A stretch of 64,000 nt of DNA from Eledone cirrhosa (Eukaryota), in the NCBI GenBank assembly GCA_964016885.1, contig OZ024765.1, positions 21,762,001-21,826,000 of the forward strand, written 5' to 3'. A model generated the notes under the pieces. That model was not told where the DNA came from and did no database searches. It was given only the letters and a program-made list of their open reading frames with translations. A program made the translations under genes and the position numbers. Below are positions 280-49,238 of this stretch, piece after piece. Numbering within the stretch: the first letter of the stretch is position 1; every line of letters begins with the position of its first letter.

Positions 280-690
280 TAAAGTATTAAAAAAATAATG
301 AATAAAACAATGAAACAGTTCCTTATATTAAACAAAAAAAGTTCATTATTTAACGATCGTTTCTAGGACATATATGTGTTAGAATTGGCATGCATATTCA
401 ACAGATCTATGTACAAAATTATACAAACTATCAAATATAATATACATACCAACACATACATATGCCGTCTTCAGAAATAATATTTCTGAAGACGGCATAT
501 GTATGTGTTGGTATGTATATTGAATTTGATAGTTTGTATAATTTTGTATAATTTTGTACATAGATCTGTTGAATATGCATGCCAATTCTAACACATATAT
601 GTCCTAGAAACGATCGTTAAATAATGAACTTTTTTTGTTTAATATAAGGAACTGTTTCATTGTTTTATTCATTATTTTTTTAATACTTTA
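280..690. repeat. ~410-bp near-perfect palindrome (centre ~480), Penelope-like terminal-repeat derived
   Basis: 280-478 is the reverse complement of 482-690 apart from small indels; contains a hammerhead-like core. Confidence 0.9.
481..622 (+). ncRNA. Type I hammerhead-like motif with long stem II
   Basis: tattt-CTGAAGA ... GAAA-CGATCG-TT-aaata; palindromic stem III, GUU cleavage triplet; stem II base is irregular. Confidence 0.45.
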
Positions 691-2247
691 TATTTATATA
701 TATATATTTAGCCAGAATCAGTTCCAGTCCCACCCTTGCAAGCAGGGAAAAGTGGACGTAAAAATATTGATGTGCATCGAGTGCTGATCTTCATTGTCTC
801 ACCAGTTTTCTTCAGACTTACTGAACTTTCTACATATAAAAAAGGGTCGATCGACTTTCGTCAAAATCGGACCGAGGAAACAATGTTTCCGTTGGTCTTT
901 CCAGTTGCTAGTTAGTACTACTATCGGTCGCAACTCCTGGTAGAAGGAGCAACGTGAAATAAAGTGTCTTTTTATATATATATATATATTTATATATAGG
1001 AACGATTAGGACCCCGACGGCTGAGCTCAAGCCGTTTCGACGGCTAATTCTGGACTATTACCCACTCTACTACCCTAAGTATTGAGTACTTTGGTGCGTT
1101 ATGGTCCACCTGGTTCCTTACCACATTTCCTTCGTTATATATATGTATATATATATATATAAAGTGGTCATGTAGGAGACACAGTAAAAAGGCTCCCAGT
1201 CCACACTGTAAATGTAGTTGGTGTTAGGAAGGGCATCCAACCGTAGAAAACCTGCCAGAGACAGTTCTGTACGAGACACGGTCTCCAGACCAATCTCGCC
1301 TCAAGTGGGACAAAACCGTCCAACCCATGCTAACATGGAAGATGGACGTTAAACAATGATGATGATACACACAGAATATGTATAGTGGAAGGTAATGGCT
1401 GATACAGCTTGGCACCAGTGACATCGCAACTAATTTCAACAGCTGAATAAACTGGAGCAACATGAGATAAAGTGTCTTGCTCCAGGGAATCGAACTCACA
1501 ACTTCACAATTTGTAAGCCTGATGCTCTAACAACTGAGCCACAATGATAAAGTTGACCTCAACAAACTAGTGATAGAGAGACGAGGTAAGAGATATAGAG
1601 GAAGAATCAACCCCAGTACGTAACTGGTACTGTATATATAATATCTTCAGGTCTAAATACAGCAGATTTCTACCAGAGAAAGTATGTAAGAAAGAGCTAT
1701 AGAGGCAGAATGAACCTCAGTACATGACTGGTACTATACAGCAGATTTCTACCAGAGAAAGTATGTAAGAAAGAGATATAGAGGTAAAATGAACCTCAGT
1801 ACATGACTGGTATTGTGTATATATGTATATATATATATATATATATCATCTTCAGGTCTAAATACAGCAGATTTCTACCAGAGAAAGTATGTAAGAAAGA
1901 GATATAGAGGTAGAATCAACCCCAGTACATGACTGGTACTATATTTATTTACCTACAATTATACTATTTTTTTATAGACTTTGAATGGATGTCGGCAGGA
2001 TTTGACGAGAGAGGTGGAACAAACACCACAAGGCATTCTAGCCAAGACTCTAACAACTCTGCCAATTTACTGCCTGACTTTAAGCTAGGCTAATACGTAA
2101 AGAATATTTCTTGTGAAGAAACGTTGCAATTTTGGTACAAAGTGTAACAAAATATATTATAACTTGGTTTAAAGTGTGACATGAGTGAAAACAATGTATA
2201 GAAACTACTGATGTAGATTTTGACTGGGTATATATATATGTATACTA

Positions 2248-3543
2248 CTAGCATTAAAGCCTGGCGTTGCTCGGGGTCATTAAGTTACCAAAGTTAGGTT
2301 GCACCACCCATTTTATGGCAGCACTTTTTTGTCTGCCAGGCACTGGGTGAATGAATTGCAGACCTGGAAGCAGGAGCTGCGCCAGCAGTGACAATTGTAG
2401 TTTCGCCTATGGATATTATCTCTGTGCAAAAAAGTGTTGAAATTTATTGTTTCACAGTACTTGCGCAACACGCGCGTAGACGATGCCAGCCGAACAACAG
2501 AGCTGCGGTGGAGTTGTTCTGCATGGTTGTCTGTGTGTTTTCTAAATTGAAGACAGTAGGGATGGGTGTGATATGGGGGAGAGTTAGCTGCTGTTTCTAG
2601 CAGGTTTAGTGACCTCATAGAAGATATGTTTTCTAAATTTAAGACAGTAGGGAGTGGTGTGATATGGGGGAGAGTTAGCTGCTGCTTCTAGCAGGTTTAG
2701 TGACCTCATAGAAGATATGTTTTCTAAATTTAAGACAGTAGGGAGTGGTGTGATATGGGGGAGAGTTAGCTCCTGCTTCTAGCAGGTTTAGTGACCTCAT
2801 AGAAGATATGTTTTCTAAATTTAAGACAGTAGGGATGGGTGTGATATGGGAGAGAGTTAGCTGCTGTTTCTAGCAGGTTTAGTAACCTCATAGAGGATAT
2901 GTGTTTTCTAAATTTAAGACAGTAGGGAGGGGTGTGATATGGGGAAGAGTTAGCTGCTGTTTCTAGCAGGTTTAGTGACCTCATAGAAGATATGTTTTCT
3001 AAATTTAAGACAGTAGGGAGGGGTGTGGTATGGGGGAGAGTTAGCTGCTGTTTCTAGCAGGTTTAGTGACCTCATAGAAGATATGTTTTCTAAATTTAAG
3101 ACAGTAGGGAGGGGTGTGGTATGGGGGAGAATTAGCTGCTGTTTCTAGCAGGTTTAGTGACCTCATAGAGGATATTATTGTTTATCATTATCTATAAAAG
3201 GCAGATTGTTGTTGTTGTTGTTGAAGTGAGTGTGTTGAGAGAGTAAAACGGACAGTATCACCATCAAGCTTGGAAAGAGAAAGTAGCAGAAAGTATGAAG
3301 TTGTATAGATTTTGAATGGTAGTGGAAAGAGTTTAGCAGTTTAAATGACAGAGAAAAATCGTAAAATATTCAGTTTTATCTATTTTTTGCGTAATTGTGG
3401 GTGAAATTGAAAAAATTAGATGTGCCAAGACGCAATCGAAACTATTTCGAATACTGAATTGTAAATTTCAATTGAAGAAATTCTATATCGTAGATTTCTA
3501 TAAGAAAGGAGCATGACCACACACTGAGCTTTATAGATTATGA
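2248..3543 (-). mobile_element. Non-autonomous Helitron-like element with internal 91-bp tandem array
   Basis: On - strand starts TC, ends with a GC-rich hairpin (cccgagcaacgccagg) then CTAG, inserted between A and T. Confidence 0.65.
2540..3172. repeat. 91-bp tandem repeat, ~7 copies
   Basis: ctagcagg recurs at 2597, 2688, 2779 and onward. Confidence 0.9.
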
Positions 3544-3552
3544 TATATATAT

Positions 3553-47945: not shown

Positions 47946-47998
47946 TATCTATCTACCTATCCATCTACCTGTCTATCTATGTATCTATCTATCTCCAG

Positions 47999-48091
47999 AA
48001 CACTGAGAAGGTCCAGTCACCAGAACTAGAAGATCGGAAGACTATAAACGGCTCCACTGACATTGATGAAGATCAACAAAAGCAAGATGAG
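47999..48091 (+). CDS. CCDC93: CCDC93 exon 9 (NTEKVQSPELEDRKTINGSTDIDEDQQKQDE)
   Basis: Open, phase 0-0, acidic linker preceding the conserved exon 10. Confidence 0.8.
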
Positions 48092-49238
48092 GTGTGTACA
48101 TCGTATATATATATAAACTCCGACCTCACACACTTACACCTCTCCAAGACAATGTCACTGGACCGAGACCTTTGGCGGTACTCAGTAATAGAGAAGATCC
48201 GCCTTACCTAAATACATAGTAAAACCTACTACAGCCAGTAGGCATCTCTAACAAAATACACCCCCATCCACACCGCCCCTTCAATGTAAAGCTATGTTGG
48301 TGCCACAACATCCAGGCCGAAACAAATGAGGTCGTGTAGGTGTCACGACAAAAAAACACACAGTCCACGCTGTAATGTGGCCGTGTAGGCAACACGGTAA
48401 AAACCTCCCAGACCCACACTGTAAATGTGGTTGGTGTTAGGAAGGGCATCCAGCTGTAGAAAACCCGCCAGACAGTCCTATGCGAGCAAGACAATCACTC
48501 TTGCCTCAAGTGGGAATACCCCCGTCCAAACCCATGCAAGCGTGGAACACGGACGTTAAGCGTTGAAGATGATGATGATGATGATATATATATATATATA
48601 TATATATATATATATATATATGAGAGTATTGAAGTTTGCTTGAAGCATTGTGGAACAATAAGTAAATATCTTTAAGTCGTTTGGAAGCCTCGACAATGCA
48701 AATGGGTAAATCTCCGGGTAACAAGGTCCGGTGGTGGAGAGAGAGATGTAAGTGGGTGTACGTTGAGATGCGTGGTGTGTATAAGATGTGTGAGATGTGT
48801 AGAATGAAGGGAAGAGTATAAAGGATAAAAATAAAAATAACAACACAAGAGAGAGTTACTTTGGGAGAGATTTAATAGTCCCTATATATTTCGGATTCAC
48901 ATCCATCAACTGGGGTTTTTTTCCGGGGTGGGGGAAAAGGTTGTCTGTCGGACAAATCCGGAACACGTCTTTCGCTGTTTGTTGTTTTGAATATCTATAT
49001 ATATATATTGTACTTGTTGGTTTTCACTTCAATTTATTATAAATTTCCGTTTGGTTGGTTGGTTTAATAACCGGATGGCTGTTTATATATTGTCAAAGCT
49101 CTTTCGTCACACATTCTGTGACCTCCTTAGTGACTAGGTTTTTATTTTGTCTCTCTCCTTTGTTCTGTCCTACACCATCTTGGTTTTTGTGTGTTGGATT
49201 CCCTAAGTGAAATATCTCTCATTTTTCTTTATTTCTAG

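What the first reader, a model, noticed from the sequence alone, without database searches (positions are those of the whole stretch)
481..49136. Hammerhead-ribozyme folds in at least six unrelated short repeat families
Seen: the order stem I - CTGANGA - stem II - GAAA - short stem III - NUH - stem I' can be read at 481-622, 8977-9040, 12698-12761(-), 23432-23498, 25745-25797 and 30391-30440. Degenerate versions occur at ~11355-11420(-), 41087-41133(-; CCGAAGA...GAAA-CAATTG-TA), ~41217-41317(-), 44161-44226 and ~49092-49136(-). Stem sequences differ between families while the core and pairing are kept, and stem III is usually a palindrome (TATATA, TGCGCA, CGATCG, CAATTG). Established: minimal type I hammerheads with palindromic stem III are typical of Penelope-like elements and non-LTR retrozymes and cleave best as dimers. 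Inference: this genome hosts a diverse, dense (about one per 6 kb here) population of ribozyme-bearing non-autonomous retroelements embedded in (TA)n tracts.
Basis: partly seen in the sequence, partly recalled or inferred. Interest (0 to 1): 0.8.

Follow-up and report, generated by a model that had tools for sequence, protein, structure and literature searches.

The report
Octopus retroelement ends: hammerhead plus hairpin
This stretch of octopus DNA carries many short inserts with real hammerhead (self-cutting RNA) motifs, likely the ends of Penelope-like jumping genes, and six unrelated insert families share a small bulged hairpin, lying 4-8 bases past where the shorter arm stops, that likely tells the element's enzyme where to start copying.

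Summary
The host is an octopod.

They are not tandem retrozymes. They lie in short inserts in (TA)n, often as outward-facing inverted pairs with one short and one long arm, the known footprint of Penelope-like elements (PLEs). That much is published (Cervera 2014; Arkhipova 2013; Craig 2021).

New here: the extra 'tail' of the long arm carries a bulged hairpin, RCUC-stem-loop-stem'-UW-GAGY, in 6 of 7 families that show a tail. Its stem sequence differs between families, and 0 of 20,000 shuffled quartets share such a feature. The short arm stops 4-8 nt before it in 7 of 7 near-identical pairs. By eye, the same hairpin is in 3 of 6 published Hydra-clade PLE consensi (coral, sea cucumber). My searches did not find it described.

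Likely role: the binding site that positions the two reverse-transcription starts. Untested: cleavage, expression, protein binding, and a direct link to an octopus PLE ORF (none in the window).

The parts
143..691 (.). Family A inverted pair: long arm on - (ends at 143), short arm on + (ends about 691), both into TA-rich repeats
344..482 (-). Hammerhead A-left, intact core, stem III palindrome CGATCG, GUU site
481..623 (+). Hammerhead A-right, intact core
194..274 (-). Tail hairpin of A (A-U outer pair, UU bulge, long loop); predicted MFE fold
1000..1135 (.). Family H insert H1: 3' half hammerhead on - (1011-1056, GUC) abutting a tail on +; arms do not overlap
1064..1087 (+). Tail hairpin H1
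8480..8657 (.). Family H insert H8: diverged inverted pair with half hammerheads; tail hairpin 8582-8605(+) with one broken inner pair
8746..9170 (.). Family B inverted pair: short arm on -, long arm on +
8789..8854 (-). Hammerhead B-left, intact core, TATATA palindrome
8976..9041 (+). Hammerhead B-right, intact core
9090..9109 (+). Tail hairpin of B; predicted MFE fold
11316..11479 (-). Family C solo short copy; hammerhead 11351-11421 with C3U
12661..12822 (-). Family C solo short copy; intact hammerhead 12696-12763, TGCGCA palindrome
16518..16631 (.). Family C insert C16: short arm on - (3' half hammerhead) joined at a palindromic microhomology to the distal tail on +; arms do not overlap
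16792..16837 (-).
23371..23626 (+). Family C solo long copy; intact hammerhead 23430-23500; tail hairpin 23543-23567; sense strand of CCDC93 intron 1
25745..25797 (+). Hammerhead D, intact core, TATATA palindrome, (TA)n on both sides, no tail
30391..30440 (+). Hammerhead E, intact core, 6-bp stem I, weak stem II, non-palindromic stem III
39417..39566 (.). Family K inverted pair; 3' half hammerhead with odd-length stem III palindrome on - (about 39448-39466); tail hairpin 39536-39556(+), G-C outer pair, one broken inner pair
40903..41028 (.). Family J inverted pair with no hammerhead in the arms; tail hairpin 40969-40989(+), G-C outer pair
41087..41133 (-). Hammerhead F, U4C, CAATTG palindrome, no tail
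41206..41677 (.). Family H insert H41: short-ended arm on - with degenerate hammerhead 41217-41317, followed by about 250 nt of non-arm sequence; long arm on + 41570-41677 with hairpin 41606-41629
43931..44355 (.). Family C inverted pair C44; both hammerheads carry A6U and U16.1A; tail hairpin 44272-44296 with one broken outer pair
45898..46020 (.). Family L small inverted pair with a tail but without the hairpin (the counter-example)
49092..49136 (-). Doubtful hammerhead G (G5A, no palindrome, passes no descriptor)
22395..49289 (+). Host gene CCDC93: exon matches at 22395-22481, 37332-37454, 37897-37995, 38781-38891, 40250-40357, 42318-42425, 49239-49289; C23, D, E, K, J, F, H41, C44, L and G are intronic

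Best explanation
These are short (TA)n-flanked inserts with hammerhead motifs and a shared bulged tail hairpin; they are likely the 3' ends (pseudo-LTR plus tail) of Penelope-like elements, likely of or near the Hydra clade, and the hairpin likely is the RNA site bound by the element's RT-endonuclease to position its two copying starts. Proposed steps: (1) inferred: a PLE protein encoded elsewhere binds the template RNA at the hairpin and nicks (TA)n. (2) Inferred: the nicked TA end primes cDNA either at a UA 4-8 nt 5' of the hairpin (short end; position shown) or about 40-60 nt 3' of it (long end; position shown). (3) Inferred: priming from both target strands gives one short and one long cDNA, which join head to head at a palindromic microhomology; this yields the inverted pairs (shown), while single priming yields the solo copies (shown). 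(4) Shown: most copies that reach the hammerhead run across the cleavage site, and one pair carries dead cores in both arms; so cleavage is likely not needed for insertion, and the ribozyme likely acts in tandem master transcripts or with protein help.
For: Anatomy: inverted pairs A, B, C44, H8, H41, J and K each have a short and a long arm ending in TA repeats. This is the published PLE pattern of head-to-head inverted pLTRs with a tail at one end; close dual hammerheads on opposite strands are reported for truncated PLEs. In the anole PLE, RT starts at two internal sites that bound the tail, both DNA strands are extended, and ribozyme mutants still insert. Hairpin: 5 strict hits in the window, 5 of 5 in long tails, against 0.66 per shuffle. 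It is the only outer-helix/bulge/inner-stem feature shared by the tails of A, B, C and H; 0 of 20,000 shuffled quartets share any such feature in all four. J and K, found afterwards, carry it with a compensatory G-C outer pair. Short arms leave the long arm 4, 5, 4, 5, 8, 4 and 4 nt before it (7 of 7 pairs). By eye it is exact in 3 of 6 Hydra consensi of Craig 2021 File S7 (Hydra-2_Amil, Hydra-2_Ajap, Hydra-1_Ajap). In Hydra-1_Ajap it opens the consensus, and Hydra elements target (TA)n and occur in Octopus. Twin priming: in C16 and H1 the two arms do not overlap, so the short arm cannot be a fold-back copy of the long one. Family C in run X1: sharp 5' edge at about 23370, and TA-type loose ends behind 23525 (40 contigs), 23543 (32) and 23626 (11). 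Of 20 listed variants, none is in the core, 5 of 5 in hammerhead stems keep pairing, and the only one inside the hairpin is in its loop (read).
Against: No PLE ORF is linked to any of these families, so the Hydra assignment rests on the hairpin, the target and one half hammerhead. The hairpin is only partial in Hydra-1_Crog and in the octopus Hydra-1_Obim, and weak in Hydra-1_Amil (3 of 6); those checks were by eye. Most Hydra hammerheads have odd-length stem III palindromes, whereas A, B, C, D, F and I have even ones. The hairpin is the predicted MFE in 3 of 7 tails (A, B, H41); it is 0.9-1.6 kcal/mol above it in H1 and C23; in J and K the outer helix forms but not the bulged register. Family L has a tail without it. 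Within family C all stem variants are one-sided, with no double compensatory change. Both arms of C44 share 12 variants absent from three other C copies, which fits fold-back or arm-to-arm conversion as well as one RNA copied twice. Tails here are mostly 60-135 nt (K about 35), against the published 30-40 nt.
Confidence: 0.62

Rival explanations
1. Same PLE origin, but one priming event only: the cDNA folds back and copies itself, and the endonuclease then resolves the intermediate by cutting 4-8 nt from the motif, which is read in DNA rather than RNA.
For: Near-perfect palindromic centres in A, B and C44; 12 variants shared by both C44 arms; self-priming and endonuclease resolution are the published proposals for inverted pLTRs and tails; the hairpin can also form weakly in DNA on either strand.
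Against: C16 and H1 have non-overlapping arms, and the H41 short arm contains a hammerhead absent from its long arm, which fold-back cannot make. Solo short copies end at the same place. The anole PLE shows two RT starts directly.
Confidence: 0.22
2. The inserts are dispersed monomers of non-LTR retrozymes that spread through self-cleaved circular RNAs from tandem arrays elsewhere in the genome.
For: Type I hammerheads with palindromic stem III; retrozyme families include many solo monomers and derive from pLTRs; inserts span the cleavage site, as cDNA from a circle would.
Against: No hammerhead in any tandem array of the window. For family C, none of the 3 joints listed in table 5 leads from the 3' end back to the 5' end (contigs drop rare forms). 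Fixed short and long ends and head-to-head pairs are PLE features.
Confidence: 0.1
3. The palindromes are MITEs or other DNA transposons with terminal inverted repeats in TA sites, and the hammerheads are passengers.
For: Long inverted arms and TA flanks.
Against: Arms are unequal in every pair, solo single arms exist, the inverted junction varies within a family (C16 against C44; H1, H8, H41), and hammerhead and hairpin keep one orientation and order.
Confidence: 0.03
4. The motifs are chance folds in AT-rich repetitive DNA.
For: No Rfam support; 8 of 9 hammerhead stretches have MFE z-scores weaker than -2.5; site G fits this reading.
Against: 7 against 0.05; hairpin 0 of 20,000; conserved core in family C.
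Confidence: 0.02

Closest known systems
Minimal type I hammerheads of metazoan Penelope-like elements (Cervera and de la Pena 2014, PMC4209133)
   Same: CUGANGA / GAAA / UH core, short palindromic stem III, many sequence families per genome, mostly single copies, some dual copies 100-700 bp apart on opposite strands.
   Different: The canonical G10.1-C11.1 pair is not clearly kept in A, B, C, D or F; stem II can be very long (A, over 100 nt). Local density is far above the few thousand per genome given there. Octopus does not occur in the one supplementary file searched (one file could not be searched).
Hydra-clade PLEs (Craig et al. 2021, PMC8557442), including Hydra-1_Obim of Octopus bimaculoides
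   Same: (TA)n target, hammerhead near the 3' end, and the bulged hairpin 3' of it in 3 of 6 consensi read by eye; family K has an odd-length stem III palindrome as most Hydra motifs do.
   Different: No ORF here; most window hammerheads have even palindromes; four families use A-U where the Hydra consensi use G-C in the outer pair. The passages and sections of the paper that I read do not mention the hairpin.
Poseidon PAc of Anolis (Frangieh et al. 2024, PMC11167929)
   Same: Two 3' ends bounding a tail, AT-rich target, insertion without ribozyme cleavage.
   Different: The PAc start region is an AC-rich stem-loop inside the ORF, and the letters of its Fig. S1B show no RCUC/GAGY helix; tails here are longer.
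Non-LTR retrozymes (Cervera and de la Pena 2020, PMC7229834; Li, Clavereau and Pollet 2026 preprint)
   Same: Non-coding, type I hammerhead, PLE-dependent.
   Different: No tandem units, no evidence of circular RNA; inverted pairs and tails instead.

Membership tests
Type I hammerhead ribozyme | Conserved core CUGANGA, GAAA, UH with stems I-III in type I order | tested here: met
   8 motifs at 6 loci with intact core
Type I hammerhead ribozyme | Match to an Rfam hammerhead model | tested here: not met
   no hit at gathering score; none in 3 focused scans at E<=10
Type I hammerhead ribozyme | Self-cleavage at NUH | not testable with these tools
   needs in vitro assay; the one RNA run laid gave no test
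Minimal PLE hammerhead | Palindromic stem III able to pair between two copies | tested here: met
   A, B, C, D, F, I; predicted duplexes -3.2 to -10.5 kcal/mol; not E; H has a longer stem
Penelope-like element | Head-to-head inverted terminal repeats with a tail on one arm | tested here: met
   7 near-identical or diverged pairs plus 2 non-overlapping ones and family L
Penelope-like element | RT plus GIY-YIG ORF | tested here: not met
   no GIY-YIG hit in the 150 longest of 198 frames; the one RT hit lies in an APE-type LINE; motif scan negative; a partner elsewhere in the genome could not be sought
Hydra clade | (TA)n insertion preference | tested here: met
   loose ends
Hydra clade | RT phylogeny and protein motifs (RWK, DKT, CxCX5C, no CCHH) | not testable with these tools
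   no protein linked to these ends
Hydra clade | Shared tail hairpin (proposed here, not a published criterion) | tested here: inconclusive
   exact in 3 of 6 consensi by eye; the 21 Repbase members were not available beyond their hammerhead rows
Non-LTR retrozyme | Head-to-tail tandem units each with a hammerhead | tested here: not met
   none in the window; rest of genome not available
Non-LTR retrozyme | Abundant circular RNA | not testable with these tools
   no usable RNA run
Non-autonomous element family | Fixed boundaries, no ORF, high copy number | tested here: met
   family C only: sharp 5' edge and two 3' ends over 4148 contigs of X1; other families not tested outside the window

The most novel reading that the evidence does not exclude
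A small bulged hairpin (RCUC-stem-loop-stem'-UW-GAGY), kept from corals and sea cucumbers to octopus, is the template-recognition element of Hydra-type PLE reverse transcriptases. It sets the proximal start 4-8 nt upstream and so explains both the PLE tail and the inverted insertions by twin priming. Any short RNA carrying it can be mobilised into (TA)n, which has seeded the octopus genome with an unusually dense population of hammerhead-bearing palindromes, a possible source of long dsRNA in introns.
Probability: 0.4. Interest if true: 0.72.

Novelty: new variant of a known kind. Interest (0 to 1): 0.5.

Why it matters
The added value is a concrete, covarying cis-element at a fixed distance from one of the two PLE 3' ends. 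How PLE proteins pick their template, and how tails and inverted insertions arise, is stated as open in Craig 2021 and only partly answered in Frangieh 2024. The hairpin gives a direct mutational test and a marker for assigning ORF-less fragments to a PLE clade. Second, Rfam misses all of these motifs, so cephalopod hammerhead counts built on it (235 in giant squid) may be far too low. Third (inference), intronic inverted pairs with arms of about 170-210 bp would give long dsRNA in an animal known for heavy A-to-I editing (recalled).

Tried and rejected
Whole genome not held, so no genome-wide counts, covariation or partner search. Rfam: only tRNA (a SINE head) at gathering score; the miRNA rows are TA/CA-repeat noise. 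Metagenome scan with a family-C motif: 3 of 3 loci lack the rest of the hammerhead and are chance matches. Sequencing runs: no RNA holder listed; the one RNA run laid (X7) gave 0 reads, which is no test. Summed contig depth in X1 (0.6-2.2 million over most of the element against 34-53 in the flank) points to very many copies but is not a copy number. The repeat finder was swamped by microsatellites. MAFFT misregistered the tails and hairpins, so pairs were tabulated by script and no covariance model was built. The short-end offsets for H8, H41 and K were wrong through mis-set start points and were redone. The idea that tails encode an ORF start (one 30-codon frame in C23, stopped in C44) was dropped as within chance. 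The idea that sense-strand intronic hammerheads are depleted was dropped: C23, D and E are intact and sense in CCDC93 intron 1. One Naiad consensus shows the hairpin, a single case that may be chance. The findings index held nothing on this genome, this sequence or the hairpin.
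Full report
HOST. The window is repeat-rich animal DNA: 101 tandem-repeat rows, a tRNA-headed SINE and LINE fragments. CCDC93 exons run from 22395 to at least 49289 on the + strand. One exon is 100% identical in protein to three Octopus species; others are 72-100% identical. The host is therefore an octopod, probably none of those three species (inference). 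No whole genome was held.

OBSERVATION. All 11 sites read as stated. A descriptor with exact core gave 7 hits against 0.05 per shuffle (60 shuffles) and 0 on the reversed window; with one core mismatch, 9 against 0.3. The 7 hits are 4 families. Site E needed a descriptor written for it (1 of 300 shuffles hit). Site 41217 is supported by its fold and sister copies, 44161 by family membership. Site 49092 passes nothing and is left open. In all there are 8 hammerhead families (A, B, C, D, E, F, H, I) plus a half motif (K), at 15 loci, 6 of them with intact cores. Rfam shows none.

ANATOMY. The motifs are not in tandem repeats. They lie in inserts of about 70-550 nt that end in TA repeats. Self-comparison shows outward-facing inverted pairs: A (276-694, 94% identical), B (8740-9090, 97%), C44 (43923-44272, 97%), H8, H41, J, K and L. 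In each, one arm continues as a tail and the other stops early. C16 and H1 join a short arm to a tail piece without overlap. C11 and C12 are solo short copies, C23 a solo long copy. No GIY-YIG or PLE-type frame was found in the 150 longest of 198 non-repeat frames; the one RT hit belongs to an APE-type LINE at 51401-54557.

FAMILY C OUTSIDE THE WINDOW. Laid on 23340-23632, run X1 gave 4148 contigs, X5 37, X6 6, and RNA run X7 none, which is no test. Depth rises sharply at 23370. TA-type loose ends lie behind 23525, 23543 and 23626, and one loose end before 23361 (2 contigs) reads as the inverted arm. Of 20 listed variants, none is in the 19 core and stem III positions; on its own this is weak, since about 1.5 would be expected. 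Five fall in hammerhead stems and all keep pairing by one-sided changes. One falls in the tail hairpin, in its loop (my reading). C is thus a true non-coding family with fixed ends. For the other families only window copies were seen.

THE TAIL HAIRPIN. The tails of A, B, C and H are unlike in sequence but share ACUC-stem-loop-stem'-UW-GAGU. A strict scan found 5 hits, all in tails, against 0.66 per shuffle. The motif was read from these tails, so I ran a test fair to that: any 4-bp outer helix with a 1-3-nt bulge and a 3-bp inner stem shared by all four. Only this one is shared, and 0 of 20,000 shuffled quartets share any (8 share one in three). J and K, noticed later as inverted pairs, carry it with G-C in place of the outer A-U. 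The first three inner pairs differ by family: UA/GC/UA (A), CG/AU/AU (B), CG/AU/GC (C), UA/AU/CG (H). Three of 9 copies (C44, H8, K) have one broken pair among the first seven. The short arm leaves the long arm 4, 5, 4, 5, 8, 4 and 4 nt before the hairpin in A, B, C44, H8, H41, J and K; the short C arms C11, C12 and C16 leave at 7, 7 and 4. Against: L has a tail without it, and the bulged fold is the MFE in only 3 of 7 tails.

LINK TO HYDRA-CLADE PLEs. Reading File S7 of Craig et al. 2021 by eye, the hairpin is exact, with G-C outer pair, UU or UA bulge and 4-5-bp inner stem, 3' of the hammerhead in Hydra-2_Amil and Hydra-2_Ajap, and at the very start of Hydra-1_Ajap. That is where the tail begins in a tandem arrangement. 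It is partial in Hydra-1_Crog and Hydra-1_Obim and weak in Hydra-1_Amil. Hydra elements target (TA)n and one is known from O. bimaculoides. One Naiad also shows the motif, which may be chance. The anole Poseidon stem-loop does not.

MECHANISM. Shown: positions of ends, hairpin and hammerheads, arm asymmetry, TA flanks. From the literature: PLE insertions show head-to-head inverted pLTRs with a tail on one arm; the anole PLE nicks and extends both strands, starts RT at two internal sites that bound the tail, and inserts without ribozyme cleavage, its hammerhead needing protein. Inferred: the RT-EN binds the hairpin and primes at a UA just 5' of it or about 40-60 nt 3' of it (about 10 nt in K); two primings give a pair and one gives a solo copy. 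Non-overlapping arms favour two primings over fold-back. The 12 variants shared by both C44 arms (4 differences between them) fit one RNA copied twice, fold-back or gene conversion. The hammerheads are unlikely to cleave from these loci: pairs put them on opposite strands, a read-through RNA is predicted 85-88% paired, and three intact sense copies are tolerated in CCDC93 intron 1. Minimal PLE hammerheads showed no cleavage as monomers and low cleavage as dimers, and 1 of 9 frog dimers cleaved.

COMPARISON WITH PRINT. What I saw: Cervera 2014, parts 1-2 of 4 and passages of one supplementary file; Frangieh 2024, parts 1-2 of 4 and the text of Fig. S1 (the GenBank supplement was unreadable and may bear on the PAc comparison); Craig 2021, passages, outline, section 11, supplement parts 2, 52 and 53 of 59 and four supplement searches; Arkhipova 2013, passages; Cervera 2020, passages; Li 2026 preprint, parts 1-3 of 5, supplements not opened; Bonar 2026, part 1 of 3 and passages, with 31 recently active PLE families in O. 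vulgaris and no occurrence of 'ribozyme'; giant squid genome, passages. Eight library searches returned no paper whose listing or read text describes octopus hammerheads beyond Hydra-1_Obim, or the tail hairpin; subscription papers and Repbase reports are not covered. Heavy A-to-I editing in octopus and hammerhead residue numbering are recalled.

VERDICT. Hammerheads in PLE ends are known. The conserved tail hairpin at a fixed distance from the short end, shared with Hydra-clade elements of other phyla, appears undescribed and is directly testable. New variant of a known kind; interest 0.5.

Noticed in passing
window 22395-49289 (+): Exons of CCDC93; intron 1 is about 15 kb and holds three intact sense-strand hammerheads (C23, D, E).
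   Followed up: partly
window 51401-54557 (+): Broken APE-type LINE (endonuclease, RT and a PHD-like finger after the RT); further LINE fragments near 20128-20600(-), 39554-39988(+), 42488-42874(-) and 42976-43720(-). Not scanned for HDV-like ribozymes.
   Followed up: no
window 45340-45567 (+): Frame with a weak C2H2 zinc-finger match (E 4e-5, below cut-off) inside a CCDC93 intron.
   Followed up: no
window 45898-46020: Small inverted pair with a tail but no hairpin and no hammerhead; may come from another PLE clade.
   Followed up: partly
window 4895-5983, 6243-6882, 35146-37125, 38076-38680: One 72-bp minisatellite occurs as two oppositely oriented pairs of arrays; a related 123/65-bp unit occurs at 17214-17943, 27899-29972 and 49974-50335, suggesting a mobile satellite carrier.
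   Followed up: no
window 30695-30804(-), 25501-25717, 831-970, 8045-8154, 50794-50903, 3562-3671: tRNA-headed SINE family with a structured 3' part; many copies, often next to the hammerhead inserts through shared TA/GAT tracts.
   Followed up: no
window 41320-41570 and 16840-17130 (-): Unique sequence 5' of hammerheads H41 and I, possibly the 3' UTR of longer elements; no coding match seen.
   Followed up: partly
window 1011-1040(-) and 41218-41245(-): The stem III loop of family H hammerheads contains the same UUGAGC word as the 3' side of the tail hairpin; 2 of the 10 occurrences of the word pattern in the window, the other 8 being tails.
   Followed up: no
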